The notes under the pieces: generated by a model
What the model saw: only the letters and a program-made list of their open reading frames with translations
What the model was told of the DNA's origin: nothing
Databases searched by the model: none
Made by a program: the position numbers and the translations under genes
Shown: positions 1 through 50,335 of the stretch, piece after piece
How the letters are laid out: each line of letters starts with the position of its first letter
How positions within the stretch are numbered: the stretch's first letter is position 1
Source of the DNA: a virus
IMG/VR virus record: IMGVR_UViG_3300039412_000320
Direction: 5' to 3' (one strand)
Length of the DNA stretch: 64,000 nt

Positions 1-483
1 GAGGTAAGGAAGGCAGCCAAAAACCAAGGAGAAAAATTCTATTCTTTCCCTCGTCCTTGTTCGGAGGGACACACGTCAAAACGGTTTGTAAGAAATACAG
101 AATGTTACCAATGTCACATTGAACAGTCTCATGCACGACGGGCTATCCGAGCAAGAACACAACGAGAATACAAAATGTATCATTCAGCTAAAGGACGAGC
201 AAGAGAGGGAGGACTAGAGTTTGGAATCACCATGGAAGATATTAAGAAAGCGTGGCCAAAAGACAATAAGTGCCCAATTTTAGGAATTGAATTAGAGTCC
301 AATAAAACTGGAATGGGGCCTCAACGTCAATCCCCATCACTTGATAGGATTGACCCTAAAGGAGGATATGTGGTTGGCAACATCGCTGTTATATCCTACA
401 AAGCTAATTGCATAAAACAAAATGAAACTAATCCCGAAATTTTTGAATCAATGGCTAGGTGGTTACGTTTTAATAAAAAGTAG
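1..483 (+). CDS. HNH-family homing endonuclease, 5'-partial (frame is open to the window start)
   Basis: In-frame with no stop from nt 1. Zn-finger CSEGH..CYQCH, then SPSLDRIDPKGGYVVGNIAVISYKAN motif shared with ORFs 12924-13310 and 63122-63874. Confidence 0.55.
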   Translation, partial: EVRKAAKNQGEKFYSFPRPCSEGHTSKRFVRNTECYQCHIEQSHARRAIRARTQREYKMYHSAKGRAREGGLEFGITMEDIKKAWPKDNKCPILGIELESNKTGMGPQRQSPSLDRIDPKGGYVVGNIAVISYKANCIKQNETNPEIFESMARWLRFNKK

Positions 484-494
484 AGGAGGAAAGT

Positions 495-2063
495 TTGTCA
501 TTTGATATACAAGCTGATAAAAATCAAATAGGCTCTGTGTATCTTCTTCACTTCTTAGGAGGTGGGATTTTTCATGGGTCTCAAGCAAGGGTTCGCCATT
601 ATTGCGGATTTGCTTTAGACCCCGAGGCCCGCATTGCTTTACATATGAATGGGACTTCACGGGCCAGACTTATGGAGGTTGCCCATCAGCGACATGTAGA
701 ATTTACCGTGGCTCGTATTTGGAGTGGAGTGACTCGTGAGTTCGAGCGCAAACTCAAGAACAGTGGTGGTCTGTCCCGCCACTGCCCAATTTGTAAGGCG
801 GAGGGTACCGACCGGGATTCTGTGCGTAAGAAACAGCAGGCTCCTGCGGTGCAGGAAGTACGGGTAGTGGAGGAGAACGAAGTAAAGCATATCGAGCTTA
901 TCCCAAGACCCAAGACCGCTGCGCTCACAAGAGACAACGCCCGTTGGAATGGCAAGCCGTTTTCCTTGGGAGCGGTGTCCTTGCTGGATGGGCACATTGA
1001 AGAAGCCCACAACTATCAGGAGTGCAAGGCGGGTGGATGGCACCACAGCCACATATTCAGCCAGCCGATTCTGGAGAGGGAACAGAGTGAATACGACTGG
1101 ACCAAAACCGACCCTCGTGCCCCCGAAGGTCCGCAAGGTGGTGGACCCGCCATCGGCTGGGGCGATACCCCATGGGGAGACTCCCATGGAAAGACCAGTG
1201 GAGATATCACCATATTCTGGGTAGAAGATGATGGGTCAATCGGTTGCAACTACCCACTTCCCGAAAATATCAAAGCGGCCATTAAGAAGCAGATTCAGGT
1301 CATCAGGTGGAGAAGGGCCGCTGAGGAGGATACACTTGCCAAGCTCGTATGGCAGTTCCGAGAGGAACAAGAGGATTGGTATGAGTGGTTAGAGGACAAA
1401 TCCTGTTTCCGTGAACAGTGCCTCTGTTTGGCGGACCTGTTAGCGAAGTTTCTGCGGGAACATGGTTTCCCTGATGCCCATCGGGCGGGTGGGTATTATG
1501 GAGAAGGACCGGAGAAGGGTGAGTATTTACAAGTAGGAAGGCATGGACTACATTGGTGGGTAGAGACGCAGGATAAAATCATCGACATCACCTGCGACCA
1601 ATTCCACCCCGGAGAAGAAGATGATTGGCGAGTGGTAATCACCGACCTTAACGACCCGGAGTATCAACGAAAGGGCACCGGCTCGGCGTTGGTCCCCAAG
1701 ACCGCTGAGGAGATTCCCGAGATTCTCTATCACGTGACTTTTAAGAGCCGGGTTCCTAAGATACTTCAAGAGGGACTGGTTCCCCAAAAGGAGCCGAACT
1801 TCCCCTTTGAGGAGAACCGGGGTTTAGTATTTCTGACGGCGATTGAGGGAGTGGATTATTGGAAAAACCTTCTCGCCGAGTTTATACGGGGCAAGGATGA
1901 TGAGTTGGTTACTCTTCGCATCAAGACTGAGGGGATGCGTTTGGCAAAGGACCCCTTGGGAATGGGAGAAACTGGTGTTCTTTCATATTCAACCCACCTT
2001 GTTCCCCCCAAGAATATCACAGTGCTACCAGAGCCAAGAAAGATTGCCTCCGTAGAACAATAG
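495..2063 (+). CDS. Multidomain protein: N-terminal GIY-YIG-like nuclease domain, CPICKAE zinc ribbon, C-terminal KptA/Tpt1-like LYH(V)T domain
   Basis: GSVYLL..HYCGFALDPEARIALHMNG..FERKLKN resembles GIY-YIG motifs. ILYHVTFKS..LVFLTAIEG..LVTLRIKT aligns to KptA FLYHGTAS..YVHLSADEA..VILTVKA. SD aggagg upstream. Confidence 0.5.
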   Translation: MSFDIQADKNQIGSVYLLHFLGGGIFHGSQARVRHYCGFALDPEARIALHMNGTSRARLMEVAHQRHVEFTVARIWSGVTREFERKLKNSGGLSRHCPICKAEGTDRDSVRKKQQAPAVQEVRVVEENEVKHIELIPRPKTAALTRDNARWNGKPFSLGAVSLLDGHIEEAHNYQECKAGGWHHSHIFSQPILEREQSEYDWTKTDPRAPEGPQGGGPAIGWGDTPWGDSHGKTSGDITIFWVEDDGSIGCNYPLPENIKAAIKKQIQVIRWRRAAEEDTLAKLVWQFREEQEDWYEWLEDKSCFREQCLCLADLLAKFLREHGFPDAHRAGGYYGEGPEKGEYLQVGRHGLHWWVETQDKIIDITCDQFHPGEEDDWRVVITDLNDPEYQRKGTGSALVPKTAEEIPEILYHVTFKSRVPKILQEGLVPQKEPNFPFEENRGLVFLTAIEGVDYWKNLLAEFIRGKDDELVTLRIKTEGMRLAKDPLGMGETGVLSYSTHLVPPKNITVLPEPRKIASVEQ

Positions 2064-2075
2064 GAAGACAAGAAT

Positions 2076-3116
2076 GTGGTAGCCCATATAGGAAGCTACC
2101 GTATCGTTGTAGATGACCCCGGAGACGCTAAATATATTACGGCATGGACGGAGGACAACAAATGTGTTGGCAAACTATCTACCAAACGACAGAGCGACAG
2201 TGGACCCCTGAACGACTATCTCGGGATTGCACTGGTGGAAGTGAAACCACGGCATCGGGGATACGGACTGGGCAAGGCGATGTACTTTGCCCTGATGCAG
2301 TTCATGAATCCGAAATGGAAGGGAATCAAGAGCTACCTCCCGGAGAGATACAATAAGAAGCGGGTTCCCAACATCTGGCGTAGACTGCAAGGCTACAAAC
2401 TTCCCGGAGAAGAAGACTGGATGGTTGCCGACCGGGATAAGGTTGCCAAGATAGCGTCAGGTCAGGACTCCCCGGACTGGGAAGAGGATGAGGATTCTCT
2501 CCTCACCAAGAAAGCTTGGCAGGATGAGCGCTTCTCCTATTGGGGATTGCAGTTCGCCGTTGACAAAGCGGAGGGGATCATTGCCGCCAATCCCCGGCCT
2601 ACGCAGAAGGCTCCCAAGGCATTTCTCAAAGCCTTTGTTGGCACCGTGGAAGATGACAAGGCTGAGGAAGAGGGTAGAATCAACCTCATGAATGTGGGCC
2701 TGAATAAGGAACACATGCAGACCGTTGATGCTGAGAAGCCCGGTATTGTTGCTCCCCTCATTTTCAAGCCGGACAAGACTCACTCCGAACCGCAGAAACA
2801 CTACATCCTCATTGACGGAAACCACCGGGCTAAGAAGCGCCTCCAAATGGGTCTGGACTTCATGGAAGTCTACCCCCTCACCCCCGAGGAAGCGTGGCAG
2901 TGCATGGCTCCGTACACCTTCCCCAACCTGTTGAAAATCTATGTTAACCCGACCAAAAAGGTGAGGAAGAAGGCGGAAGAGCAGCCCGCCAGACTCCTCT
3001 ATGTTGACGACATGCGCCGACCCACCGCTCCTGATGTTGATTGGGTCAGGAATTATGAAGAGTTCTTCCAGTACATGACGACGCATCCCATGCCCGAGGC
3101 TATTAGTTTTGGATAA
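2076..3116 (+). CDS. GNAT acetyltransferase - ParB/Srx-like nuclease domain fusion
   Basis: GNAT motif A VKPRHRGYGLGKAMYFAL. C-terminal ILIDGNHRAKKRLQMG resembles the ParB/sulfiredoxin DGxHR motif. Confidence 0.5.
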   Translation: MVAHIGSYRIVVDDPGDAKYITAWTEDNKCVGKLSTKRQSDSGPLNDYLGIALVEVKPRHRGYGLGKAMYFALMQFMNPKWKGIKSYLPERYNKKRVPNIWRRLQGYKLPGEEDWMVADRDKVAKIASGQDSPDWEEDEDSLLTKKAWQDERFSYWGLQFAVDKAEGIIAANPRPTQKAPKAFLKAFVGTVEDDKAEEEGRINLMNVGLNKEHMQTVDAEKPGIVAPLIFKPDKTHSEPQKHYILIDGNHRAKKRLQMGLDFMEVYPLTPEEAWQCMAPYTFPNLLKIYVNPTKKVRKKAEEQPARLLYVDDMRRPTAPDVDWVRNYEEFFQYMTTHPMPEAISFG

Positions 3117-3157
3117 TGGGGGTGATATCTTTTGACTTCGTATCTATTATATAGAGG

Positions 3158-3946
3158 ATGCGAATGACTATTAGAGGCAATTGCACCGTTTGTGGGGGGA
3201 ACTTCAAGCGTCGTTATGCTAAGAACTCCGTTCCTATTGTGAAGCTCTGTTCTAATAAGTGCAGAAGGGAGTGGCTACAAAAGGACAAGGTCAAAAAGGA
3301 GTGCATCGTTTGTAATAAGGTATTTTCCGTAAGCGCCTCAGTAGCTTATAGATATGTCACCTGTAGTATTGAATGCAAGCGTAAACATAAGGAGGGGGAT
3401 AAAAATGGAAACTGGCGAGGCGGTATAGCGGGAAATAGAAAGAAAGAGATTCGTTCCGGTAAGCTTCGTCGTTGGCGGAAAGCGGTCTTTGAAAGAGATG
3501 GACCCCACTGTGTCTTATGCGGGTCTAGTGATGGGTTAGAGGCTGACCGCATAAAGCCATGGTCTCTCTATCCAGAGTTTAGATATGAAGTAAGTAATGG
3601 ACGGATATTGTGCAAGATTTGTCATAACAAGCACACCAGAGAGTTAGCCGCCGAACGAAAGAGACTTGAGGCATTGGGGTATGTACGGATAACTTGTCCA
3701 CGAGAGTACGAGATTTTGGTTTGTCCCAGATGTGGGGTATCTTTCCTTAACAAGAGTGGTCAGAGTATCTATTGCGGAAAAAGGTGTCAAAGAGCGGAAG
3801 GACAGAAACGGTTAAGGGTAGCTAAAGCTGCCCGTGGGGAATGTAAGTGTTGTAGCAATCCAGTTGCCCCTAATTACAGTCGTTGTATTAGATGTCTCGA
3901 AAAGCAAAGAGTGGAGATGGCTGAATACAGAAAGCCTGATGTATGA
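3158..3946 (+). CDS. HNH endonuclease with multiple CxxC zinc fingers
   Basis: Many CxxC pairs. GPHCVLCGS..LEADRIKP..N..LCKICHNKH HNH core. Ends with ATGA overlap onto the next ORF. Confidence 0.55.
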   Translation: MRMTIRGNCTVCGGNFKRRYAKNSVPIVKLCSNKCRREWLQKDKVKKECIVCNKVFSVSASVAYRYVTCSIECKRKHKEGDKNGNWRGGIAGNRKKEIRSGKLRRWRKAVFERDGPHCVLCGSSDGLEADRIKPWSLYPEFRYEVSNGRILCKICHNKHTRELAAERKRLEALGYVRITCPREYEILVCPRCGVSFLNKSGQSIYCGKRCQRAEGQKRLRVAKAARGECKCCSNPVAPNYSRCIRCLEKQRVEMAEYRKPDV

Positions 3947-4656
3947 GAGATTTAACACAACCAGAGGCAGGCGGTCTTGGACTAACCGCTGCTCGTTATG
4001 TTATTGATAACAATCTTTCCATAAAGCGGTGGTTTGTTCATTCACCCAATATAATGGAGAAAAAAGAGTTAGAAAGCCTCTTATTTAACTACTCTCCTGA
4101 TGGCTACGACTCATCTTTGTACAAGACTCCCCACGTTAATGAAGAAGAGCAAGTCTACGGTGGGAAGATAAAGGGAGGCTTCCGGGTGAAGGCTGCCCGG
4201 CGCAGAGTAAATCCCCTTCTGCAACCGTCCGGTCCGTGGCCTGAACGCTCCGCCGATTGGTCTAGGCTTTCTCAAAATGGAGGTTGGATATCTCGGGACG
4301 GGCGACCTCTCCCCATGACTCACCCCTACGAACTCCACGGAGAGTGGGCGATGGCGGAAGACCTGTGCGGCATGGATGATTCAGAGGTGGAGGAGCAGGG
4401 GGGAGAGGATTACCTCGGATATGCCGAGAACCTTGCCATGGAGAATGGGCACCTCCGGGTTGACCGGGATGCTGGTCAGTTTTCCATACAGGCACGAAAT
4501 GTCACAAAGAGCCGCCGACTCATCACCGAGGCTCTGTTGATGACGCCATTCAAGGGAGAAGTGACCTTGGAGATGGGTCCACACGACCGCCCAAACTGGT
4601 CTAAAAGCCTCATTTCCACGCAGGATGCCGCAGATTGGCTAGAAAATATTCAATGA
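3943..4656 (+). CDS. hypothetical protein
   Basis: 237-aa ORF, start overlaps upstream stop (ATGA). No recognisable motif. Confidence 0.4.
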   Translation: MRDLTQPEAGGLGLTAARYVIDNNLSIKRWFVHSPNIMEKKELESLLFNYSPDGYDSSLYKTPHVNEEEQVYGGKIKGGFRVKAARRRVNPLLQPSGPWPERSADWSRLSQNGGWISRDGRPLPMTHPYELHGEWAMAEDLCGMDDSEVEEQGGEDYLGYAENLAMENGHLRVDRDAGQFSIQARNVTKSRRLITEALLMTPFKGEVTLEMGPHDRPNWSKSLISTQDAADWLENIQ

Positions 4657-4664
4657 CAGAATAA

Positions 4665-4701
4665 ATGAACTTTCTGAAGCACTTATAGGGGGAAAGTTCA
4701 T
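4665..4701 (+). promoter_or_regulatory. RBS/start-codon sequestering hairpin upstream of GIY-YIG gene
   Basis: Perfect 10-bp inverted repeat atgaactttc / gaaagttcat. The 3' arm contains the ATG at 4700 and follows the SD aggggga. Confidence 0.5.
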
Positions 4702-5407
4702 GTTTATCTATTTGATTGTAAATCATGAAACAGGAAAGTATTATGTCGGTCAACATACAGGTCATAATCTAAAGAAGTACCTTCAACAAAAATTTTCAGA
4801 TGCCAGACACGGACGAGGGGGAAATTCTCGTCTTTATAATTCCATGCGTAAACACCCCTTTCCTCATCTTTGGTCCATCCACGCCCTCCGTTCCGATATC
4901 CAAGCTAAAGCCGAGCTTGATGAGACCGAGCGGGACTTCATCAAGTTCCTTCGTGCTCAAGACCCTGAGTATGGCTACAATCTTTGTCGTGGAGGGGAGG
5001 GGTTTACCGGACTGCATTCTTCTCAAACTTGTGCTAAAATGAGTGAAGGGGTTAAACGAGCTTGGGCTAACCCCGAAAAAAGAGCCAAGCAATCGGCAAA
5101 TCTCAAAGCTGACTGGGCTAAACCTGAGTCTTTTTCTAATCGGGTTCAAGCGATTAGGGATTCATGGGCGGACCCTTATTCTCGTTCTAATCGTATGAAG
5201 GCTTTTGAAAATCTTGATTTTCACAGTAAAATGAGCACGGTTAATAAGAAAACATGGTCTGACCCAGAGAGAAGGAAAAAACAAGCAGCACTTCAAAGAG
5301 AGCGATGGACAAACCCCGAATACCGTGCCAAAATGAGTAATCTAGCTAAAAATCAAAGCCGAGGTACGGGACAGAAGTTTGTTGAAGCACTACCACTAGA
5401 CTCTTAA
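4700..5407 (+). CDS. GIY-YIG homing endonuclease with NUMOD3-like repeats
   Basis: MFIYLIVNHETGKYYVGQHTG (GIY..YVG), conserved R/E/N downstream. Repeated W(A/S/T)NPE..R.K motifs (NUMOD3-like). Paralogue of 38479-39327. Confidence 0.75.
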   Translation: MFIYLIVNHETGKYYVGQHTGHNLKKYLQQKFSDARHGRGGNSRLYNSMRKHPFPHLWSIHALRSDIQAKAELDETERDFIKFLRAQDPEYGYNLCRGGEGFTGLHSSQTCAKMSEGVKRAWANPEKRAKQSANLKADWAKPESFSNRVQAIRDSWADPYSRSNRMKAFENLDFHSKMSTVNKKTWSDPERRKKQAALQRERWTNPEYRAKMSNLAKNQSRGTGQKFVEALPLDS

Positions 5408-5423
5408 ACTCTTTAATAGGCAC

Positions 5424-6848
5424 ATGGAAGAGCTTATCTACAAGACGGCGGGAGTTTGGGATAACCTTGACCGGGGATTCCTTGAGAAGATACACAACCA
5501 TGCCCCCGGAGTGGTTGTGGGTCATCTCAGTACTTTACTTAGGAATCAACGACTTAGGGAAATATATGAGAAAGTACTTGAAACCCCCATCAAGACCTTC
5601 AATAAACCGGAAGAGGTGGAGTTGGAGGGTGGTTCCCCCTTAAAGTGGCAAGGTGGATACGGGGTTTCCCACGGTGGTTCGATGATATTTATCAACCCCG
5701 CCATCAGCACCACCAACATTGTCAAAACTCTGTTTGAGGAAGGCGCTCACGCTATTTGGGCAGCGGAGGGGCGACCATCTAAACCGTTTGACCCCGCTCA
5801 TCCCCCCACCGAGAAAGAATATCTCTCTGACCCCGAAGAGCTTTTTGCCAAGCGTATGGCAGACCGTGCTTTCGCTATAGCTACGGGAGGGATAAAGACT
5901 GCCGCTTGGGCAGAGGCAACCGACTTCTCTTCCGACCCCCAGTGGCACGACGTGTTCTACGGAAATCCCTCGCCAGAGCGCATAAAGGCCCTTGCCAGCT
6001 TCCTTCGCTCCGACCCCAACCGCTTCATTACCCTTTATCACGGTACCGCCTCTGATTTGCCAGTGATGGAGGAGGGGTTGCTTCCGACCAGTCCCAGCAG
6101 GGCTAAATCGTATCAATCCAGTCCCGGTTACGTGTATCTCTCCGTATATCCGGGGAACGCCAAGAACTTTGGAGAACTGGCTTACCCCGGAGAGGATATC
6201 ACTGTCTACGCTGTCAATGTCACCGCCCGGCGATTACTGCCGGATACTGACCAGCTTGCCAATCAGCGGTCAGTGGGTAAGGAAGTGGGGAACAGCCTCG
6301 CTGAAAGCTTGGCAATCGGACATGGGGCACGAGTAAAGGGAGCAGTAGGTCCGATGCAGCTTTACAAGGCTGCCGCTAAAAAGTTGCGACTCCCCCCCGA
6401 CATCATAGACGGTACACGAAGCTTTCTGTGGGCTATCGTGAATGACCGGGTGATTTTTTCCTTGGAGATTGAACCCCACGTTATCTGGTTTAAACGAGTT
6501 GGACTTTCCGATTCCGGCCCGGCGTTCGACCGTATCCCCCGAGGGAGAATCTGGGTTCAATCGGCCCGTGATGAGGTCGTAATTTTTACCGAGGCAGGAA
6601 GTGGTGGTATCACGGGGCAGGCGGATTTCACCTTCGCCCCGGAGCATGTTGTAAAGGCTATGTTGCAGACCTTCCCTCAGCTTCGAGACTTTAACATCGT
6701 TGACGATATCCCTTCAAATCTTGTGGTAACCTCCTCTGTACATAAAAGAGGGGGAAGTCTCGCATCTAAGACAGCCCACATTTTATTGGCCGGAATAGGA
6801 GAAGATGACCGTGCGTACCTGAAATGGGATAGCAAACAAGCTAAGTAG
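5424..6848 (+). CDS. Multidomain protein: KptA/Tpt1-like LYHGTAS domain plus the ~90-aa GPxFDRIPRG module (paralogue of parts of the 2025-aa protein)
   Basis: ITLYHGTASDLPVMEEGL..YVYLSVYPGNAKNFG..DITVYAVNV matches E. coli KptA FLYHGTASRFLDEIKKQGL..YVHLSADEATARKVG..VILTVKA. N-terminal LSTLLRNQ vs KptA LSFVLRHK. SGPAFDRIPRG..FAPEHVV..FPQLRDFNIVDD module. Confidence 0.55.
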   Translation: MEELIYKTAGVWDNLDRGFLEKIHNHAPGVVVGHLSTLLRNQRLREIYEKVLETPIKTFNKPEEVELEGGSPLKWQGGYGVSHGGSMIFINPAISTTNIVKTLFEEGAHAIWAAEGRPSKPFDPAHPPTEKEYLSDPEELFAKRMADRAFAIATGGIKTAAWAEATDFSSDPQWHDVFYGNPSPERIKALASFLRSDPNRFITLYHGTASDLPVMEEGLLPTSPSRAKSYQSSPGYVYLSVYPGNAKNFGELAYPGEDITVYAVNVTARRLLPDTDQLANQRSVGKEVGNSLAESLAIGHGARVKGAVGPMQLYKAAAKKLRLPPDIIDGTRSFLWAIVNDRVIFSLEIEPHVIWFKRVGLSDSGPAFDRIPRGRIWVQSARDEVVIFTEAGSGGITGQADFTFAPEHVVKAMLQTFPQLRDFNIVDDIPSNLVVTSSVHKRGGSLASKTAHILLAGIGEDDRAYLKWDSKQAK

Positions 6849-6856
6849 AGAGGGGG

Positions 6857-9800
6857 GTGACCCCGACGAGGATACGTCCGACCCCGAAAAGGTTACAGAC
6901 TATGCCTGATAATCTAACCATATACCCAGTTACTCCCGAGTGGGTTTCAAAGGCGAAGGTGTTCTTAGCCGAGAAGTGGAAAGAGCGTGCCCAAGAGTTA
7001 GGTAAATCCAACCCTACGGATATGTCGGGTGCCTGCAAATTTATCTCTCTGTTCGGAAAGACGATTTTCGGGCTTGACATTCAAGGAAACTGGGGGCATC
7101 AGTACAACATCACTCCAGATGGTAAGCCTCTCGACCTTGCTGAGGGGTTTTCGGGAGAGGTTAGTTATCTTCACGATAGTGAATTTTTCAATAACCCCAA
7201 GCATAGGGAATCAATGGCGTCTTGTATGCCGAGGGTGAGGAGATGGGCTGAGGAGTTTATCCAGAGGTATCCCTTATTGGATAAAACGGCGTCCACACAG
7301 ACAAGGTGGTCTCATCCCCTGTTGAATGGGCTTAAGGCGGAAACACGCAAGGCTCCTACCTTCGAGGACTTCAAGCATGACTTCTCCATAGACATTAAGC
7401 ATGGACTGTATTTCCATGTCACCGACAACCCCAACTTCACTATCGACCCGGCGAAGGGTCCTCGGGATATGTCCAGCATGGGAGGCGGGACACCTGTGCC
7501 GGGAAAGTTGATGGTTACTTCTCACTTGGAGAATTGGACGGATTACTACGAAAGCGACCGGGCGTATGTCGCCGTCATTGACATGTCGGAAGTGCCGAGG
7601 GAATCCTACCATCAGGTAAGCCGGGGATTCGGCAATGAGTTTTGGGTGGAGAACCCGCAGGCGGTTAAGGTAGCGGCGGTCATGCCAGTTAAAGAGGCTA
7701 TCAAGCTGGACCGCACATATCAGAACGTTCTGGACCTTCACTCTGATGAAGACCTGTTGGAGTTCTATAACCAGTTCCACGCCCCAGCAGAACCCGAGTG
7801 GAAGCCGCCCAAGGAGCAGGGTAAACTTCCCTTCCGGGGTAAGGGCATTCCCGTAGTCGCTTATGAGCCTTGCGATTTTGAGTTACTGTGGGCAACTTGG
7901 CATAACAAAGTGCTGTTGACCGATGACATGGGTCTCTGGCATGTTAAATGGTTTCAAGAACTCAATCAGCATTCTCAACGGCATGACCCCATTCCTTCAT
8001 GGGGACCGGAGTTTGATAAAGTTCCTCGGGGAAGGGCGGAAGTCAATAAGAAGAAGAAGCGAGTCCGGCTGTACACCGATGCCGCACCCAAGGGGTCAAG
8101 AGCAGGTGAATCCATTACAGGAGAGGTTGACTTTGACTTTACCCCCGAGGAAGTAGTAGCCAAGATAAAGCAGAAGTATCCCTCACTCCGGGACTTTGAG
8201 TTTGTAGATGAGGTTGCTCCTCGGATAATGGGCAAATGGGCAGCCGATGAGTTTGAATACCCTCAGATTGCCTACCATGTCAGCCGTCGCCGTAGCCGGA
8301 ACTCCATTCTAAAAAATGGATTGCAGATGTACCACAAGCAGCAGTATGAGGATGTGGAGCACGAGCCAGCGGTGTATTTGTTCGGTAGCCTCACTGATGC
8401 CGAGAACTGGGTAGGTGAGCAGCAGCCCTACACAGGACAAGCTTGTGACATCTGGGAAGTGAAAGTCCCACAAGGGGAAGGAACGTTTTGGCCGGACTTC
8501 GAGGTTCGGCACGAATACCCCACGGCGTGGAAGTATCTCTGGGATATTCCTCCACAAAATATCAAGCTCATCAAGACTATATCGCTCCCCAAGCAGGCGG
8601 CTCTACCCACTGGAAAAGCCATAGATGACCTCGGGATATCCGGTCAGCAGGGATGGTCATATGACGAGCCGTTCCCGGACCGGCATAATGATTTCTACGA
8701 GGACGACCAAGTTCAGAATCCCCACAATGAGCACCCCCTGACCGCCTCTCTATCCCCGGCCTACACCGAGGAAGTAAAGAAACTGGAATACGAGCACGAG
8801 CTTATCTCCTTGGCGGAGGAGATGGGGAACTTCGAGCGGGTGGTGTGGGAGCGCCAGCCGGTCCTCAAGACTCACATGTTGGACACCGTGGGCTTGGCAG
8901 GCTCCGCAAACGACTACCCACATCTACGGGCCGTCCATGTGGGTGACCCCGACTATTGGTTCAGTCGGCTGACAGAAGATTACAGCCGTGACTCCAAGGC
9001 GTGGGTGGTGGAGATATATCCCACCGAAGATGACTATCTGTGTGATGATGTGCAGTATGCCATGGACCCTAGCGGTGGAGACAAAGCATATAGCGCCATT
9101 CTCATCACTCCTCGCACTCAGTTGGTGGAGGGTAAGGATTTCCGGTACGTGAAGGAATTGACGGAGGAAGACCTCCCCGAAGTCTATGATGAAGATGACG
9201 GGTTTGGTTTCAAGGACGCTGCTATTAAAAAGACAGTCATCATGTGGGTTCGTCATGAGGGAAAGCTTTACACCACCGTACAGGTTGGGGGCAAGAGCCA
9301 TGCCCAGTGGTTGGAAGAACTGAGCCTACCGTTCTCCGGTCCTTCCTACGACCGAATAGAACGAGGGGTAGCGATTGTAGACCGAGGGCACAGAGTCGTT
9401 CACCTCGTCAAGAACGCCGGGGGATACACGCCCAATGACGTAGTGGAATACATCAAGAATCGGTACAATCTGAAGGAGTTTATATTCGTTGATACGGAAA
9501 GCTCCGACACGGGTATTGTAGCCTTCAAAAAAGTTGCCAGTGACGATGCTTACTACGATGCGGCAGAGGCGTTCTTTGACCGGGAGAGCGTGGTAGCCGT
9601 AGAAGTAATCACCGAATACATGCAGCACGTCCGCCAGAAGAGGTATCGTCAGCAGTGGAATGTCGTGCCCGCCGCCCGGCTCATCAAAATTTGGGAAGAC
9701 TACATGAAGACGGGGTTTGTCCGGGACTCAGCGGGTCTTAATCAGATAGCGGAAACCGTCATTGACAACTGCTTTAAGATTTACGTCAATTCCATCCTCT

Positions 9801-12800
9801 GCGGTCATAGTGCGATGGGGCCAGAAGAGTATGCTTTGGAGATGCTGGAAAGGGAAGGTATATCCAAGAAATTCCCGGAGGACTACTTTAAGAGGGCACC
9901 AGACTACTTTGATACCCCGGAAGGCGGCTGGAGGATAAGTGACCAAGCTGAGGGGCGTTTGATGAATCTCGTGCAAGGGGTGTACCTTGCCAAGAGTGAT
10001 GAAGACAAGTTACAAGCGCTTGATAAGGTCTTGCAGTTTTCCCACCCCCGCAGCGACCTGTCAAGCTGGCTGGTGCAAGGCGGAAGGACCACCTTGAATC
10101 GGCTCTTCACCGGCATGAATGAATATGAGCGGTGGGAGCAATACGGCGGCGTGGAGGAGGCAAAAGAGTTAAACAAGGAGTTCAATAAGGGTAGGAATGC
10201 CCCCCTTATTCCCAAGGAGGCGTGGAGCACGGAGCCGGGCGGAGAGCCGCTCAAGCCCGAGACTCAATCCACTATCGCTGAGATGGTAGCGGATATACGC
10301 AAGATATACCCTGAGTGCCAGCGCATCTCCTTGGCAGGCTCCGCCGCTCGTGACGAACTCAAACCCAAGTCTGACATTGATGTGGTCATTGATTTCCCCA
10401 AGGGCACTCCCGCATGGGATATGGTGGAAAGAGACCAACCACTTTGGGACAAGTACCAACAGGTGGAAGGTCGGATGGTGGACTTCATCATCCATGTAAA
10501 AGGTGGACCGCACGCCGGGCAGTATGATTACCGGGAGGAGTTGGGTCTCCCCAATCCCATGAAAACTTTGTGGGAGGCTACAACCAAGACCGCTTCCTTC
10601 TCCGTTGAAGGTGAGGGATGGCTGACCCCCGATGGTCGTTTCCTCCCCAACGCTTTCGGTGAAAAGCACGAAGACAGCGCCCTGCGCCTCGGGTTTTTAA
10701 CCAAGGAAGAAGCCAAGAAGATAAAGAACGACACCCAGCGGAAAGAGCAGGTCATTGCCAAGGGGAACATTCGGGTTGGATTCTCTAACACCGGCAACAC
10801 CATCTTCTTTGAGTCAAAGACTCTTGATGCCGATACCAAGAACCTGATAGGTATGGGCTTGGAGAATCTGCCGAGAGGCGTTCGTAAGGTCTCAGTTTCA
10901 ACCCAAGATGAGATGTATTACCTGTGGACTTTGCAAGAAGCTCAAGAGGTTTTTTGGGGTAATGAGCCGATGCCCCAAAACATGGCCTACCTGAGCGTGG
11001 CTTCCAAGACCGCCGCTCTCCCCGGCCTCGGACTCCTCCAGCCTGGACACGGGGATGATTCCAGTGCGTTTGACCCCGGCTATTACATGACCGAGGGGTG
11101 CGGTATATTTGCTGTGGATGCTGATTACCGGTACTGGGGGAAGGACGTGATTCAACCCCTGATGACCGCTAAGACTGCCAAGACCGCCTCGGAATGGGGA
11201 GGTTTCTGTCCCCGTTGTGGTTCGGACCAGACAGCGTGGGCGATGCACTCTGCGACCACTGACACCTATTTCTGCATGGATTGCAAGGGCAGCACCGACA
11301 TTGAACGGGACATGCACCCCGACTTACGGTCGGCTATGAAGATAGCTGGATTGGTAGGATACCCGTGGGCGATATGGGAGGGCAAGGTTCTCCTTAGCCC
11401 GAGGGGAATGGCACACACCGACTGGTTCTCTCGTATGGGAATCCCCGACCGAGGACCGGAGTTTGACCGCATCCCAAGGGGCAACTTTTACATTGACAAA
11501 GCTAAGAGGCAAATCTACGTCTGGACGGATGCCGAGACTTATGACTACTCTAAGAACCCCTCAGAAGAGAGCCTAGACGATACGGTGGTTTTTGGTCCAT
11601 GGGGAGGAAGGAGATTCGACCTTGAATTTACTCCTCCCGAGGTGATAGAAGCCATCAAGCGAAAGTACCCCTACACCGAAGCTTATGAGGTGGTTGACTG
11701 GATGCCGCCCGGCTCCGTTCACAAGTGGAGTTCCGGCGAGTGGTGGAGGCGTTGGCGCAAGACCTATCTTATCTCCAAGGGTACCATCCTCTACCACGGC
11801 ACAACGGAAGATTTCCCGGCAATGGACATCCAAACCCCGGCATGGTTTAGCACCTCTGAATCTGTTGCCGAGTACTTTAAGGCGTGGCATGGCGGCGAGG
11901 AGGGCGAGCAACGCATTCTCAAATTCCAAGTCACCAAGCCTATCCGTCTCCCAAGGATAGATGGTTCGGAAGACCTTGAAAGACTCGCTGATATGTTCAA
12001 CTTCCCCAGCCCGCTAAGTGGGCATGATTATGTGGAAGACCTTGCCCAAGTCCTCCCCGGCTGGATTATCCCCCACAACTACCCGGACGGCGATGATATC
12101 CTGCTCGTCAGTGACCGGGACATCATACCCATCAATGAGCCGGAAGAGGAAGAAGAGGAAATCTCGCAGGAGGGTTTGCCCCCCGGAGCTTGGAGGAACA
12201 ACTCTGGTCTCCCCGGCTATTGGACTCGTGAGGGTACCACCACCATTTACCACATGACACCCGAGGAGATAGCGGAGCGGGAACAGAGGTTGCAGAAGCG
12301 GTCAGCGGCGGAGCCGGTCAAGGCTGAGGAGGCGACGTGGAGCCGTCCGCTCTACCACGGCACCTCGGCTTACCGGGCGAAGAAAATAAAGGCCCAGAAG
12401 AGCTTCTACGGTGAGACCGAGGGCTACAACGAGATGGGGGTGGGGGTCTATACCCACCCGTCCATGAACCGCACCAGCCCATGGGCAGCGGGCCGGGCGC
12501 AGGGAGCTTTCATGGAGCTTCATTTCACCCGTCCTCTAAAGTTGGCAGTGAAGAATCCGCAAGGCGAGTGGGTATCCTCCATGGGAGGAGAAAGTCATCG
12601 GTTTATTAGCAAGGCACCGACGCAGAGAGAACTCGTTGACGCCGGATACGATGGTATCTACGATAAGCACGGCACTACGCAGGTTCCCCACCAAGTGCTT
12701 CTGTTCAATCAGCCGGTGCTGGGGTCGGGCGGGGCACACAAACTCAATCAACTGATTGACTGGGACAAGGTCCGCATTATCAACTTCAACGAGTCCCAGC

Positions 12801-12934
12801 ATGGTTACCTCAAGGGGTTGGAGAACACCGAAGAAGCACCCCATTACCGGGGAGCTTCTCAAATGACCGCCGCCGATGACCGGCCCATGCCCAAGGAGTT
12901 TGTCACCACCAAGAACCTCAAGACTAACATTTAG
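6857..12934 (+). CDS. Giant polyvalent protein (2025 aa): transglutaminase-like Cys protease, 3 KptA/Tpt1-like domains, 3 copies of the GPxFDRIPRG module, MNT nucleotidyltransferase, zinc ribbon
   Basis: Uninterrupted 6 kb ORF with GTG start after SD agagggggg. GACKFISLF..GHQYNITPDGKPLD (C-H-D TGase-like). GSAARDELKPKSDIDVVIDFP (GS..DxD MNT). CPRCGSD..FCMDCKG. IAYHVS, ILYHGTT and PLYHGTS domains. Confidence 0.7.
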   Translation: MTPTRIRPTPKRLQTMPDNLTIYPVTPEWVSKAKVFLAEKWKERAQELGKSNPTDMSGACKFISLFGKTIFGLDIQGNWGHQYNITPDGKPLDLAEGFSGEVSYLHDSEFFNNPKHRESMASCMPRVRRWAEEFIQRYPLLDKTASTQTRWSHPLLNGLKAETRKAPTFEDFKHDFSIDIKHGLYFHVTDNPNFTIDPAKGPRDMSSMGGGTPVPGKLMVTSHLENWTDYYESDRAYVAVIDMSEVPRESYHQVSRGFGNEFWVENPQAVKVAAVMPVKEAIKLDRTYQNVLDLHSDEDLLEFYNQFHAPAEPEWKPPKEQGKLPFRGKGIPVVAYEPCDFELLWATWHNKVLLTDDMGLWHVKWFQELNQHSQRHDPIPSWGPEFDKVPRGRAEVNKKKKRVRLYTDAAPKGSRAGESITGEVDFDFTPEEVVAKIKQKYPSLRDFEFVDEVAPRIMGKWAADEFEYPQIAYHVSRRRSRNSILKNGLQMYHKQQYEDVEHEPAVYLFGSLTDAENWVGEQQPYTGQACDIWEVKVPQGEGTFWPDFEVRHEYPTAWKYLWDIPPQNIKLIKTISLPKQAALPTGKAIDDLGISGQQGWSYDEPFPDRHNDFYEDDQVQNPHNEHPLTASLSPAYTEEVKKLEYEHELISLAEEMGNFERVVWERQPVLKTHMLDTVGLAGSANDYPHLRAVHVGDPDYWFSRLTEDYSRDSKAWVVEIYPTEDDYLCDDVQYAMDPSGGDKAYSAILITPRTQLVEGKDFRYVKELTEEDLPEVYDEDDGFGFKDAAIKKTVIMWVRHEGKLYTTVQVGGKSHAQWLEELSLPFSGPSYDRIERGVAIVDRGHRVVHLVKNAGGYTPNDVVEYIKNRYNLKEFIFVDTESSDTGIVAFKKVASDDAYYDAAEAFFDRESVVAVEVITEYMQHVRQKRYRQQWNVVPAARLIKIWEDYMKTGFVRDSAGLNQIAETVIDNCFKIYVNSILCGHSAMGPEEYALEMLEREGISKKFPEDYFKRAPDYFDTPEGGWRISDQAEGRLMNLVQGVYLAKSDEDKLQALDKVLQFSHPRSDLSSWLVQGGRTTLNRLFTGMNEYERWEQYGGVEEAKELNKEFNKGRNAPLIPKEAWSTEPGGEPLKPETQSTIAEMVADIRKIYPECQRISLAGSAARDELKPKSDIDVVIDFPKGTPAWDMVERDQPLWDKYQQVEGRMVDFIIHVKGGPHAGQYDYREELGLPNPMKTLWEATTKTASFSVEGEGWLTPDGRFLPNAFGEKHEDSALRLGFLTKEEAKKIKNDTQRKEQVIAKGNIRVGFSNTGNTIFFESKTLDADTKNLIGMGLENLPRGVRKVSVSTQDEMYYLWTLQEAQEVFWGNEPMPQNMAYLSVASKTAALPGLGLLQPGHGDDSSAFDPGYYMTEGCGIFAVDADYRYWGKDVIQPLMTAKTAKTASEWGGFCPRCGSDQTAWAMHSATTDTYFCMDCKGSTDIERDMHPDLRSAMKIAGLVGYPWAIWEGKVLLSPRGMAHTDWFSRMGIPDRGPEFDRIPRGNFYIDKAKRQIYVWTDAETYDYSKNPSEESLDDTVVFGPWGGRRFDLEFTPPEVIEAIKRKYPYTEAYEVVDWMPPGSVHKWSSGEWWRRWRKTYLISKGTILYHGTTEDFPAMDIQTPAWFSTSESVAEYFKAWHGGEEGEQRILKFQVTKPIRLPRIDGSEDLERLADMFNFPSPLSGHDYVEDLAQVLPGWIIPHNYPDGDDILLVSDRDIIPINEPEEEEEEISQEGLPPGAWRNNSGLPGYWTREGTTTIYHMTPEEIAEREQRLQKRSAAEPVKAEEATWSRPLYHGTSAYRAKKIKAQKSFYGETEGYNEMGVGVYTHPSMNRTSPWAAGRAQGAFMELHFTRPLKLAVKNPQGEWVSSMGGESHRFISKAPTQRELVDAGYDGIYDKHGTTQVPHQVLLFNQPVLGSGGAHKLNQLIDWDKVRIINFNESQHGYLKGLENTEEAPHYRGASQMTAADDRPMPKEFVTTKNLKTNI

Positions 12935-13310
12935 TTTTTAGTGCGTTTACCATCCTGTCAAAATCAACATCAGGAAAAGCACCTCGTGCCCTATTATAAA
13001 TCCAACAAGTAAGGCGAGTATTTTCTGGTGAATAATCTCCTGTTTGATTTCTGCGGTCTAAGGAGGGACTAAATGAGTTTGTTCTACTTCCTTTACCATT
13101 ACCAACATTTAACTCAAGGGGTAGGTTAGTTACTTCACATACTCCCCGTTCTAATTTTTTTCTAATCCAGTCCTGAGTTATAAGACACTGCACTTTATCC
13201 TTTATTGCTCTTTTCCGAGCATTGTTGAGCATGAAAGCCGCCCGGCCCTTAGTTGTGGTGTAGTATTTTGAAAACTTACGCCAATTTTGTTCTCGTTCCT
13301 TAGTTGTCAT
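12924..13310 (-). CDS. HNH-family (SxDRxxxxGxY type) homing endonuclease-like
   Basis: SPSLDRRNQTGDYSPENTRLTCWIYNRA parallels the 1-483 and 63122-63874 motif. Confidence 0.5.
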   Translation of the reverse strand: MTTKEREQNWRKFSKYYTTTKGRAAFMLNNARKRAIKDKVQCLITQDWIRKKLERGVCEVTNLPLELNVGNGKGSRTNSFSPSLDRRNQTGDYSPENTRLTCWIYNRARGAFPDVDFDRMVNALKTKC

Positions 13311-13387
13311 AAGACCTCCACTAAGGAATGGATAGTTAGCAGACTATACTAAACTTTGAAATAAACGTGGGAGGGGGGTAGTTTTTA

Positions 13388-13585
13388 TTACTCCCGGAAC
13401 TTGGCAGCGAACGTATATGCCCACGCCGGGGTGGTGTAATCGAATTGTGTGAGGGCGAAGCGCCCGGCTTCCTTGAGAGCTTTTATCGCCTCCGGGCTAT
13501 CCCGGTGCTTGATGATAAGCCGGTCAATTTCCTTCACAAACTCTTCGACGGTCGCCTCCGTGGCGATGTCACCAATCATACTCAT
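13388..13585 (-). CDS. small hypothetical protein (start at MSMIGD)
   Basis: ATGA-coupled to an upstream 56-aa Cys-containing ORF (13582-13751, minus). Confidence 0.3.
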   Translation of the reverse strand: MSMIGDIATEATVEEFVKEIDRLIIKHRDSPEAIKALKEAGRFALTQFDYTTPAWAYTFAAKFRE

Positions 13586-40110: not shown

Positions 40111-41031
40111 ATGGAACAATTCAAAAAAAGTGCCACAGCAGAGACTATATATTCCACTGGAGCACAACGAGACAGTCGTATAGGCAAGGGAGCATTTCAC
40201 TGGATGCCCTGGACAGCCGTTAAGATGGTTTCTCGCATCTATGAAATAGGTAACAAACAACGAGACCTTCTCTCAGGTGGAACAGGTAATGGAGACACCC
40301 GTAATTGGGAGAACGGGATGAAGATTGCGGATTTGCTTGATAGCGCTATAAGGCATATAACCGCTCATTTAGAGGGTGACAGAAGTGAACCCCATCTTTC
40401 ACAAGCTATGTGGAACCTGCTTAACGCCCTACAAACATCTATATGGGTATACACCGGACAGAGGCCCCCAGAACTTAATAATCTCCCCGACCATATCCAC
40501 CCTTGGAAGCCGGGAAATCCGTCTCCATGTCCGCTTAGTTCTCAAGAGATAGAGTGGCTAGAAACCTGGGGAATACAAAGGAACGAGTTTCCAGACCTTA
40601 ATGACCCCGTACAAAGTGCTTCTCATCTCGCTGCCCTCGTAGATGGAGAAGGGACCATTTCAATCGTAAAAAGGGAAACAAAGCGCCGGGAGGCTTACCG
40701 TCTATCCATAAGGGTCTATAATACTTCAGAAACCCTCAAAAATTACCTTGAGAAAAGATGGGGAGCGACTACGGTTAGAAGAAAAGGGCGAAGGAAAATC
40801 CACAAGGACTGCTATACGATGATATGGACGAGTTCAAAAGCTGAAGATATTCTTCGTAGGATATGGCCGTACTTAATCATCAAGACCGCCCAAGCAAACT
40901 TGGCAGTGGCTTTTCAAACTTTGGTAAAAAACATCAATCCTGGATGCAAAGGAATACCAGAAAAAACTCTGCAACAACTGCGGTTTATGAAGGAGGAGAT
41001 AAATCGTATGAACGAAAAAGGACCCAAGTAA
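40111..41031 (+). CDS. Fusion of a nucleotide pyrophosphohydrolase-like N-domain with a LAGLIDADG endonuclease domain
   Basis: N-terminal GAQRDSRIGKGAFHWMPW..AIRHITAHLEGDRSEPHLSQAMWNLLNAL resembles the dATP/dGTP diphosphohydrolase N-terminal domain. C-terminal LAALVDGEGTIS LAGLIDADG motif. Confidence 0.45.
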   Translation: MEQFKKSATAETIYSTGAQRDSRIGKGAFHWMPWTAVKMVSRIYEIGNKQRDLLSGGTGNGDTRNWENGMKIADLLDSAIRHITAHLEGDRSEPHLSQAMWNLLNALQTSIWVYTGQRPPELNNLPDHIHPWKPGNPSPCPLSSQEIEWLETWGIQRNEFPDLNDPVQSASHLAALVDGEGTISIVKRETKRREAYRLSIRVYNTSETLKNYLEKRWGATTVRRKGRRKIHKDCYTMIWTSSKAEDILRRIWPYLIIKTAQANLAVAFQTLVKNINPGCKGIPEKTLQQLRFMKEEINRMNEKGPK

Positions 41032-49024: not shown

Positions 49025-49099
49025 GGTGACTGTAACTCAGTGGCAGAGTGCCTGACTGTGAATCAGGATACGGGGGTTCGATTCCCCTCAGTCACCCCA
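49025..49099 (+). tRNA. tRNA-His(GTG) with encoded G-1
   Basis: g-gtgactg/cagtcac, cctga-ctGTGaa-tcagg, ttcgatt T-loop, CCA encoded. Confidence 0.7.
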
Positions 49100-49104
49100 A
49101 GTTT

Positions 49105-49176: not shown

Positions 49177-49182
49177 ATATAT

Positions 49183-49260: not shown

Positions 49261-49266
49261 GATTAG

Positions 49267-49342: not shown

Positions 49343-49381
49343 AGATTTGAAAACAGTAATTGGACTTCGTAGTCCTTTAGT

Positions 49382-50329: not shown

Positions 50330-50335
50330 AAATAT

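What the first reader, a model, noticed from the sequence alone, without database searches (positions are those of the whole stretch)
495..3116. Two further fusion proteins head the effector block: GIY-YIG nuclease with KptA-like C-terminus, and GNAT acetyltransferase with ParB-like nuclease
ORF 495-2063 combines a GIY-YIG-like nuclease N-terminus (SVYLL..HYCGFA..R..H..E), a CPICKAE zinc ribbon and a C-terminal ILYHVTFKS KptA-like domain. ORF 2076-3116 combines a GNAT motif A (RHRGYGLGKAMY) with an ILIDGNHRAKKRLQMG ParB/Srx-type motif. Together with 5424-6848 and 6857-12934 they form a contiguous 12.5 kb block of nucleic-acid-modifying multidomain proteins. This is consistent with an anti-defence or host-takeover arsenal.
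Basis: partly seen in the sequence, partly recalled or inferred. Interest (0 to 1): 0.55.

Follow-up and report, generated by a model that had tools for sequence, protein, structure and literature searches.

The report
Broken-up phage polyvalent effector gene
The two "fusion proteins" are real multidomain enzymes, but they are fragments of one giant phage "polyvalent" effector gene that, in this genome, has been cut into pieces by a stop-codon mutation and by a selfish homing-endonuclease gene.

Summary
Both ORFs and all quoted motifs are present as described.

**ORF A (495-2063)**
- GIY-YIG nuclease domain: confirmed.
- C-terminal ADP-ribosyltransferase-fold domain: closest to the NAD lobe of Tpt1/KptA. 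It is not a KptA.

**ORF B (2076-3116)**
- GNAT domain: confirmed.
- A Pfam-less domain with an invariant LIDGNHRA motif: its model matches almost only ParB/sulfiredoxin folds, but weakly.

- An unknown domain in A (residues 141-284).
- A transglutaminase/YunG-like Cys-His-Asp domain in A (residues 285-395).
- B ends in half of a cREC domain. The other half starts ORF 3943-4656, and an HNH endonuclease gene (3158-3946) sits between the halves.

**One gene in relatives**
- In relatives about 90% identical in DNA, A (from residue ~103), B and ORF 3943-4656 form one ORF of 1436-2667 aa.
- This window differs by TGG→TAG at 2061-2063, the HNH insertion, and a GIY-YIG endonuclease gene (4700-5407).
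- All fragments show strong purifying selection (dN/dS 0.03-0.09).

**Classification**
Relatives' neighbours carry ART-PolyVal, InPase and Prok-JAB domains. The block is therefore a cluster of polyvalent proteins in a huge, tRNA-rich phage. It is a new member of a known kind, and the biochemical roles remain inferred.

The parts
495..2063 (+). ORF A, 522 aa: first fragment of the polyvalent gene (GIY-YIG, M1, transglutaminase-like, ART-like domains)
519..809 (+). GIY-YIG nuclease domain with a conserved C-terminal CxxC knuckle (A residues ~9-105). Invariant residues: Y16, H35, Y36, G38, R46, H50, E84, K88, C97, C100
   Evidence: Alignment A3. 36 of 68 members hit Pfam GIY-YIG, best E 2.5e-6. 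The profile hits PDB UPF0213 GIY-YIG proteins at E 2e-4 and SLX1
915..1346 (+). Domain M1 (A residues ~141-284), conserved TRDNAxWxG...SLLDGxIEExH...WHH. No known family
1347..1679 (+). Transglutaminase/YunG-like papain-fold domain (A residues ~285-395), with conserved Cys, His (HWWVE) and Asp (IDIT)
   Evidence: Alignment A4. 18 of 19 members hit Pfam YunG, 5 hit Transglut_core, 1 hits Transglut_core3 at 2.3e-5
1707..2054 (+). ADP-ribosyltransferase-fold domain (A residues ~405-520), closest to the NAD-binding lobe of Tpt1/KptA. Invariant His413 lies in LYHVT
   Evidence: Profile A9 against PDB: the seven best hits are RNA 2'-phosphotransferases (best E 1.6e-7), followed by DarT and PARP10. 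Pfam hits are sub-threshold
2061..2063 (+). In-frame TAG that separates A from B. The codon is TGG (Trp) in relatives L003/P0281 and P0300
2076..3116 (+). ORF B, 346 aa: second fragment. Its GTG start corresponds to GTA (Val) in the uninterrupted relative
2076..2477 (+). GNAT acetyltransferase domain (B residues 1-134)
   Evidence: Pfam Acetyltransf_1 scores 25.1 bits against a cut-off of 20.7. Foldseek PDB top hits are all GNATs
2523..2966 (+). ParB/sulfiredoxin-fold domain (B residues ~150-297) with invariant LIDGNHRA. It belongs to a Pfam-less family of more than 120 mostly stand-alone proteins
2991..3113 (+). N-terminal half of a cREC_REC domain (B residues 306-346, Pfam model positions 2-38)
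3158..3946 (+). HNH homing-endonuclease gene inserted inside the cREC domain. It is absent from the relative L003
   Evidence: Pfam HNH above cut-off and phrog_1271 at E 1.9e-22. Synteny and junction alignment
3943..4656 (+). Third fragment (237 aa). Residues 2-47 form the C-terminal half of cREC_REC (model positions 41-86). Residues 63-236 form a conserved domain also found at the C-terminus of P0002, P0281 and P0300
4700..5407 (+). Free-standing GIY-YIG homing-endonuclease gene. The corresponding site in L003 is a 24-nt intergenic gap
5424..12934 (+). Two further polyvalent ORFs (474 and 2025 aa) that form a single ORF in L003. They contain a repeated module, a Pol-beta nucleotidyltransferase and another copy of the ART-like domain (residues 459-578 of the 2025-aa ORF)

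Best explanation
ORFs 495-2063, 2076-3116 and 3943-4656 are three separately translated pieces of one 'polyvalent protein' gene of a huge, tRNA-rich phage.

**Ancestral and present arrangement (shown)**
- The ancestral polypeptide, still intact in close relatives, strings together independent enzyme modules: M1, a transglutaminase-like Cys peptidase, a Tpt1-like ADP-ribosyltransferase, GNAT, ParB/Srx, cREC and a C-terminal domain.
- This genome has a GIY-YIG nuclease module at the front.
- A TGG→TAG mutation cut the gene after the ART domain. A GTG start and an AGGAAG ribosome-binding site four codons downstream restart translation.
- An HNH homing endonuclease gene landed in the conserved ISFDHDL motif of the cREC domain.
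- The downstream piece overlaps the endonuclease stop codon (ATGA), which suggests translational coupling; this is a reading of the sequence and was not tested.

**Function (inferred)**
- As proposed for polyvalent proteins, the modules act on host or competitor macromolecules at the start of infection.
- The NAD-using ART may work with the cREC phosphoesterase in ADP-ribose or RNA-end chemistry.
- GNAT would acetylate, and ParB/Srx would act as an NTP-dependent or nicking enzyme.
- The GIY-YIG module would cut DNA, and the Cys peptidase would process proteins.
- The split shows that the modules tolerate being separate polypeptides.
For: **Domain map**
- Domain boundaries come from 1639 homologues.
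- GIY-YIG.
- Transglutaminase/YunG-like.
- ART/Tpt1-like.
- GNAT.

**Split cREC domain**
- The two halves score 25.3 and 12.4 bits alone. Concatenated, they score 45.6 bits (E 1.2e-11) over model positions 2-86 of 88.

**One gene in relatives**
- P0281 (1436 aa) and P0300 (2667 aa) are single ORFs covering A, B and ORF 3943-4656. They have W at the TAG position and an intact ISFDHDL motif.
- DNA synteny with L003 shows empty sites for both endonuclease genes.

**Selection and prevalence**
- dN/dS is 0.03-0.09 in every fragment.
- The split alleles are seen on many contigs.

**Polyvalent context**
- Neighbours of P0002 carry ART-PolyVal, InPase, Prok-JAB and cREC_REC.
- The polyvalent concept, including its ART, GNAT, ParB and Pol-beta NTase modules, is described in PMC5512222.
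- The functional link between cREC and KptA is described in PMC9503650 and PMC7824862.
Against: - No window ORF itself hits Pfam ART-PolyVal.
- The Tpt1 similarity covers mainly the first ~35 residues of the ART lobe.
- The cREC DHD motif is disrupted (ISFG* / MRDL), so that domain may be dead.
- Nothing here shows expression time, virion packaging, enzymatic activity or targets.
- The pairwise dN/dS includes divergence that may predate the split.
- A suppressor tRNA elsewhere in the genome cannot be excluded.
Confidence: 0.8

Rival explanations
1. One reading: A and B are two independent, purpose-built fusion proteins (GIY-YIG+KptA and GNAT+ParB), each a complete functional unit.
For: Each ORF has its own start codon and ribosome-binding site. 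The 522-aa and 346-aa forms recur on many contigs.
Against: - Homology to P0010, P0281 and P0300 runs ungapped across the TAG, with Trp at that codon.
- B ends in the middle of a cREC domain whose other half starts ORF 3943-4656.
- A contains four domains and B contains two and a half, not two each.
Confidence: 0.05
2. The fragments are decaying pseudogene remnants of a polyvalent gene that was inactivated by a nonsense mutation and a selfish-element insertion.
For: There is a nonsense codon and an endonuclease insertion. The cREC DHD motif is lost.
Against: - There are no frameshifts or further stops in 3.3 kb of coding sequence.
- dN/dS is 0.03-0.06 in all three fragments.
- A new GTG start lies just after the TAG, where the relative has GTA.
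- The split alleles are widespread.
Confidence: 0.1
3. A and B are still made as one protein. This would happen through TAG read-through or a suppressor tRNA, and/or the HNH region would be removed by RNA or protein splicing.
For: A and B are in the same frame, separated by TAG plus four conserved codons. The phage carries at least 27 tRNA genes.
Against: - No CUA-anticodon tRNA is among the 27.
- There is no sign of genome-wide TAG recoding.
- No Rfam intron is found at E ≤ 1, and only 41 nt upstream and 0 nt downstream of the HNH ORF are non-coding.
- The HNH ORF is out of frame with B, so it is not an intein. No split-intein sequences are present.
Confidence: 0.05

Closest known systems
Polyvalent proteins of phages and conjugative elements (Iyer, Burroughs, Anand, de Souza, Aravind 2017, PMC5512222)
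   Same: - Very large multidomain proteins in tandem, with shuffled catalytic modules.
- ART, GNAT, ParB/Srx, Pol-beta NTase and peptidase modules.
- Relatives' neighbours hit the Pfam families defined from that work (ART-PolyVal, InPase).
   Different: - A text search of that paper finds no mention of GIY-YIG, transglutaminase, KptA or cREC modules.
- The ParB/Srx domain here is a separate family without a Pfam model. It was not compared with the DdrB-like ParB alignment of that paper.
- Here the gene is fragmented.
Tpt1/KptA RNA 2'-phosphotransferase
   Same: The ART-fold NAD lobe begins with the same LYH(G/V)T-x8-IL-x-GL element and ends with a VPPxNI strand. Tpt1 proteins are the best PDB matches (E 1.6e-7). 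The ancestral protein also carries cREC, a domain that the literature links to KptA chemistry.
   Different: - There is no N-terminal RNA-binding lobe, and therefore none of the catalytic residues it carries (from my own knowledge of Tpt1).
- Pfam PTS_2-RNA scores 15.8-17.5 bits against a cut-off of 26.
- The domain is about 115 aa and is embedded in a polyvalent protein.
ParB/sulfiredoxin superfamily (ParB, Noc, KorB, Srx, SerK, SbnI, Osa, PadC)
   Same: The predicted fold matches only this superfamily in two independent programs. The signature strand-DGxHR-helix element is invariant.
   Different: - There is no sequence-profile match to Pfam or PDB.
- Structural scores are low.
- There is an extra N-terminal subdomain.
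- Nuclease activity is unproven: superfamily members may be CTPases, kinases, ATP-dependent reductases or nickases.
Genes in pieces created by free-standing homing endonucleases (for example Aeromonas phage Aeh1 nrdA split by mobE, PMC3045599)
   Same: - A free-standing endonuclease gene is inserted in a conserved motif of a phage gene.
- The two halves are expressed as separate ORFs.
- The flanking sequence is divergent, consistent with co-conversion.
   Different: - The target is a non-essential effector domain (cREC).
- The catalytic DHD motif is not preserved.
- No evidence exists that the two halves reassemble.

Membership tests
GIY-YIG nuclease superfamily (Pfam PF01541) | Conserved GIY...YIG strands followed by Arg, then Glu (I-TevI Y6, Y17, R27, H31, E75) | tested here: met
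   Invariant Y16, Y36-x-G38, R46, H50 and E84, with the same Y→R (10) and R→H (4) spacing as I-TevI (I-TevI numbering is from my own knowledge).
GIY-YIG nuclease superfamily (Pfam PF01541) | Profile match to the family | tested here: met
   ORF A alone gives no hit. However, 36 of 68 family members hit PF01541 (best E 2.5e-6). The family profile hits the PDB GIY-YIG proteins 1zg2 and 1ywl at E 2e-4 and SLX1.
Zinc ribbon | Two CxxC (or equivalent) knuckles giving four metal ligands | tested here: not met
   Only C97 and C100 are conserved Cys residues. The Pfam Zn_ribbon_NUD hit is sub-threshold and covers only the second knuckle. Conserved His residues might supply further ligands, but this was not tested.
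Tpt1/KptA RNA 2'-phosphotransferase (Pfam PF01885) | Score above the Pfam gathering threshold | tested here: not met
   15.8-17.5 bits against a cut-off of 26.
Tpt1/KptA RNA 2'-phosphotransferase (Pfam PF01885) | Two-lobed architecture: N-terminal RNA lobe plus C-terminal NAD (ART) lobe | tested here: not met
   Matches start at chain residue ~86 and Pfam model position ~90 of 177. The preceding sequence in A is the transglutaminase-like domain.
ADP-ribosyltransferase superfamily | ART fold with a conserved His at the start of the NAD-binding strand-helix element | tested here: inconclusive
   The invariant YH(V/G)T motif and all significant or near-significant PDB hits are ARTs (Tpt1, DarT, PARP10). 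No structural model could be made for this domain.
GNAT acetyltransferases (Pfam PF00583) | Score above the gathering threshold, plus motif A (R/Q-x-x-G-x-G/A) | tested here: met
   25.1 bits against a cut-off of 20.7. The RHRGYGLG motif is present. Foldseek top hits are GNATs.
ParB/sulfiredoxin superfamily | ParB/Srx alpha+beta fold | tested here: met
ParB/sulfiredoxin superfamily | Conserved Arg-containing motif in the active-site pocket (DGxHR / GxxR) | tested here: met
   I-D-G-x-H-R is invariant across 115 family members.
ParB-like nuclease (Pfam ParBc PF02195) | Profile match, and demonstrated nuclease activity | tested here: not met
   There is no Pfam hit for B or for any of 123 relatives. 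Nuclease activity cannot be tested with these tools.
cREC_REC (Pfam PF20274) | Full-length domain above the threshold within one polypeptide | tested here: not met
   B alone covers model positions 2-38 (20.7-25.3 bits against a cut-off of 27). The full domain (45.6 bits) appears only when B is joined to ORF 3943-4656. The conserved DHD is replaced by G-stop / M-R-D.
Transglutaminase-like / YunG papain-fold superfamily | Cys-His-Asp triad in the order and spacing of the fold, plus a profile match | tested here: inconclusive
   Cys, His and Asp are conserved. 18 of 19 members hit YunG (best E 1e-4), and some hit Transglut_core and Transglut_core3 (2.3e-5). The score listed for the window's own segment (16.7 bits vs cut-off 27) is below the curated cut-off; scores for the other members were not listed. 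No structure was made.
Polyvalent proteins (Iyer et al. 2017) | Large protein of a phage or conjugative element that combines several unrelated effector-type domains, with domain shuffling among relatives | tested here: met
   There are seven or more domains in the ancestral ORF. The modules recur in 1000-2800 aa proteins in varied orders. Relatives' neighbours hit ART-PolyVal and InPase.
Polyvalent proteins (Iyer et al. 2017) | Packaging in the virion and delivery with the DNA | not testable with these tools
   No adjacent head or portal genes were identified. A tail fibre gene lies 8 kb away on the other strand.

The most novel reading that the evidence does not exclude
The polyvalent proteins of this phage group are true polyproteins. 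The short K-(T/I)-A linker motif marks nearly every domain boundary in A and B and is about 8-fold over-represented in the block. It would be a cleavage site for a dedicated protease, possibly the embedded transglutaminase-like Cys-His-Asp domain or the nearby Lon-like protease. Each giant ORF would then be released as a cocktail of single-domain effectors. The natural splitting of the gene here, under continued purifying selection, would be a natural experiment showing that the modules work as free polypeptides.
Probability: 0.15. Interest if true: 0.6.

Novelty: new member of a known kind. Interest (0 to 1): 0.4.

Why it matters
The result corrects the gene model. Annotation pipelines would call three unrelated hypothetical proteins, yet they form one effector gene interrupted by a point mutation and a selfish element.

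It also adds module types to the polyvalent-protein repertoire of huge phages:
- a GIY-YIG nuclease;
- a YunG/transglutaminase-like peptidase;
- a stand-alone Tpt1-like ART lobe;
- a Pfam-less ParB/Srx family;
- a cREC domain.

Finally, it gives a natural test of whether such modules need to be covalently linked. The ancestral pairing of a Tpt1-like ART with cREC, in a genome carrying at least 27 tRNA genes, points to NAD/ADP-ribose-dependent RNA-end chemistry as a possible battleground. Nothing here overturns current understanding.

Tried and rejected
- **GenBank phages.** Megablast of 1-13500 and tblastn of A and B against 50,697 records gave no match.
- **Single-sequence searches.** Searches of A and B against PDB were uninformative. 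NCBIfam and PADLOC gave nothing for A or B.
- **Structure of ORF A.** A MAFFT alignment of full-length A with domain fragments misaligned the N and C domains, so it was not used for structure prediction. I expected the structure tool to accept only proteins from the search for homologous proteins, which are too few for A's central and C-terminal domains, so I did not submit an alignment and used the second job on the ParB/Srx domain. ORF A therefore has no model.
- **Whole-B model.** Foldseek on the whole-B model returned only GNAT hits, which masked the central domain. I solved this by modelling the domain alone.
- **Fold libraries.** The afdb50 library was unavailable.
- **Group I intron or other RNA around the HNH gene.** No Rfam hit at E ≤ 1.
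- **Intein or split intein.** Rejected on reading frame and on the lack of intein-sized sequence.
- **Genome-wide TAG recoding.** Rejected.
- **Promoter and terminator scans.** Not above chance.
- **Domain M1.** No Pfam or PDB match.
- **Neighbourhoods of distant stand-alone ParB/Srx-family members.** Uninformative.
Full report
**1.

The window contains ORF A and ORF B as described.
- ORF A is 495-2063 (+, 522 aa). It starts at TTG seven bases after GAGGAGG and stops at TAG.
- ORF B is 2076-3116 (+, 346 aa). It starts at GTG and stops at TAA.
- Every quoted motif is present at the stated place.
- Proteins identical to both ORFs occur on many independent public contigs of up to 338 kb.

The window looks like part of a huge phage.
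- It carries 27 tRNA genes.
- It carries a collagen-like tail fibre gene, a Lon-like protease gene and several homing-endonuclease-like genes.
- Close relatives lie on IMG/VR viral contigs of 238-317 kb.
- It has no nucleotide or tblastn match among 50,697 GenBank phage records.

**2. Domain anatomy of ORF A**

A phmmer scan of 1.84 billion representative proteins found 1639 hits. These resolve A into four independently occurring modules.

*(i) Residues ~9-105: GIY-YIG nuclease domain.*
- ORF A alone gives no Pfam hit.
- The family has invariant Y16, H35-Y36-x-G38, R46, H50 and E84.
- 36 of 68 members hit Pfam GIY-YIG, best E 2.5e-6.
- The family profile finds the GIY-YIG proteins 1zg2 and 1ywl (E 2e-4) and SLX1 in the PDB.
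- Only one CxxC (C97, C100) is conserved, so the 'zinc ribbon' is at most a knuckle.

*(ii) Residues ~141-284 (M1): conserved domain with no detectable relatives in Pfam or PDB*.

- It has conserved Cys, His (HWWVE) and Asp (IDIT).
- 18 of 19 family members hit Pfam YunG.
- Five members hit Transglut_core and one hits Transglut_core3 at E 2.3e-5.
- This points to a transglutaminase-like papain-fold domain.

*(iv) Residues ~405-520: ADP-ribosyltransferase-fold domain.*
- A 20-sequence profile hits seven RNA 2'-phosphotransferase (Tpt1/KptA) sequences in the PDB first (best E 1.6e-7). DarT and PARP10 follow.
- The match covers the LYH(G/V)T...IL.EGL element that opens the NAD lobe. There is a collinear sub-threshold match of the terminal VPPxNI strand.
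- The Tpt1 N lobe is absent, and Pfam PTS_2-RNA stays below threshold.
- 'KptA-like' is therefore right as a resemblance and wrong as a family assignment.
- The same domain recurs at residues 459-578 of the 2025-aa ORF.

**3. Domain anatomy of ORF B**

*Residues 1-134: GNAT domain.*
- Pfam scores above its cut-off, and Foldseek top hits are all GNATs.

*Residues ~150-297: ParB/sulfiredoxin-fold domain.*
- The domain belongs to a family of more than 120 mostly stand-alone 140-200 aa proteins.
- None of them has a Pfam hit, and the family profile has no PDB sequence hit.
- LIDGNHRA is essentially invariant.
- I modelled the domain alone with a 115-sequence alignment, which gave pLDDT 89.9.
- Foldseek independently ranked 38 ParB/Srx chains first, at weak E-values of 0.1-2.
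- The fold assignment is therefore supported by specificity, not by strength.
- 'Nuclease' remains an assumption.

*Residues 306-346: N-terminal half of a cREC_REC domain.*
- They match only model positions 2-38 of Pfam cREC_REC.

**4. The two ORFs are fragments of one gene**

*The cREC domain is split by the HNH gene.*
- The missing half of cREC_REC (model positions 41-86) opens ORF 3943-4656.
- Concatenating the two pieces raises the score from 25.3 and 12.4 bits to 45.6 bits (E 1.2e-11) over positions 2-86 of 88.
- An intact HNH endonuclease gene (3158-3946) lies exactly between them. Its stop overlaps the next start (ATGA).

*Close relatives carry one continuous ORF.*
- P0281 (1436 aa; it is L003 3919-8229 on a 317-kb IMG/VR contig) and P0300 (2667 aa) contain A from residue ~103 or ~273, all of B, and ORF 3943-4656 as one continuous ORF.
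- These relatives fall in the same 90%-identity protein clusters as the window's ORFs.

*The A/B junction is a point mutation.*
- The relatives read ...KIASVEQ-W-EDKN-VVAH... The window has TAG where L003 has TGG.
- B's GTG start is GTA in L003.

*The B/3943 junction is an insertion.*
- The relatives read AISFDHDL... The window reads AISFG-stop, then the HNH gene, then MRDL.
- DNA identity to L003 collapses at 3098 and returns near 4017-4095. This is consistent with an imported segment and co-conversion.

*Further differences from L003.*
- L003 also lacks the GIY-YIG endonuclease gene 4700-5407 and has a 24-nt gap there.
- In L003, ORFs 5424-6848 and 6857-12934 form one ORF of more than 1737 aa.

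*The fragments are maintained, and alternatives are excluded.*
- All fragments are under strong purifying selection relative to L003 (dN/dS 0.03-0.09, dS 0.4-0.95).
- Genome-wide TAG recoding is excluded.
- No suppressor tRNA is among the 27 tRNA genes.
- No Rfam intron is found around the HNH gene.
- An intein is excluded because the HNH ORF is out of frame with B.

**5. What the block is**

The modules of A recur in many orders inside proteins of 1000-2800 aa. The neighbours of the relative P0002 carry Pfam ART-PolyVal, InPase, Prok-JAB and cREC_REC. This matches the definition of polyvalent proteins (PMC5512222). That paper lists ART, GNAT, ParB/Srx, Pol-beta NTase and peptidase modules, and predicts virion packaging and early action.

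The literature predicts that cREC resolves cyclic phosphates on RNA ends or on the ADP-ribose>p product of KptA (PMC7824862, PMC9503650). The ancestral co-occurrence of a Tpt1-like ART with cREC therefore makes biochemical sense. I did not test it.

**6. Verdict**

The sequence observation is confirmed, and most domain guesses are right at the superfamily level. The 'arsenal' idea agrees with a known concept. The gene model and the 'two fusion proteins' reading are wrong: this is one polyvalent effector gene in pieces. Its modules were under purifying selection in the comparison with L003.

It is a new member of a known kind, of moderate interest. The specific enzymatic roles, targets, timing and packaging remain inferred.

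Noticed in passing
window 912-920, 1698-1706, 2040-2048 (ORF A residues 140, 402, 516); 2448-2456 (ORF B residue 125); further sites in 5424-12934: The motif K-(T/I)-A occurs 13 times in the 3604 aa of the block ORFs against 1.7 expected (shuffle p<0.0005). In A and B every occurrence lies at a domain boundary. In 25 distant giant relatives, 6 have it within 25 aa upstream of a projected domain start against 1.2 expected (p~0.001). Most others have a looser x-A-K-G-K form. It may be a linker or a protease-processing signal.
   Followed up: partly
window 175-483 (+), 12924-13310 (-), 3158-3946 (+), 4700-5407 (+), 40111-41031 (+): There is an unusual density of homing-endonuclease-like genes. 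Two are paralogous phrog_3322 endonuclease VII/HNH-like genes that flank the polyvalent block. The others are an HNH gene, a GIY-YIG gene, and a further ORF with an HNH C-terminus.
   Followed up: partly
window 29133-30692, 49026-52839, 55276-55447: 27 tRNA genes lie in three arrays on the + strand. A phrog_388 nucleotidyltransferase gene at 46554-47576 sits close to the second array.
   Followed up: no
window 6752-7307 compared with L003 9572-9610: The window has about 517 extra nucleotides where the relative has 38. This breaks one giant ORF into ORFs 5424-6848 and 6857-12934. It also adds an N-terminal stretch with a papain-like-looking C...H...D pattern (GACKFISLFG...GHQYN). The pattern was not tested against profiles.
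   Followed up: no
window 1-861 compared with L003: The GIY-YIG module of ORF A and the upstream endonuclease gene have no counterpart at this position in L003. There the polyvalent ORF starts with 270 different residues. The 5' end of the gene has therefore been exchanged between close relatives.
   Followed up: partly
window 2446-2508 compared with L003 6371-6853: The relative carries about 420 extra nucleotides between the GNAT and ParB/Srx domains, roughly 156 aa. By eye this insert shows a second GNAT-like motif (RRTGLGTALV). This illustrates module gain or loss within 90%-identical genes.
   Followed up: no
window 17357-19843 (-): An 828-aa ORF matches phrog_4871, an ATP-dependent (Lon-like) protease, at E 2.3e-70. 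It is a candidate processing protease for the polyvalent proteins.
   Followed up: no
P0011 and P0014 (relatives of the ORF B central domain): In these relatives the ParB/Srx-like domain is fused to a C-terminal methyltransferase-like domain. The Pfam Methyltransf_23 hit is at E 1e-4 and below threshold. The arrangement recalls known ParB-methylase fusions.
   Followed up: no
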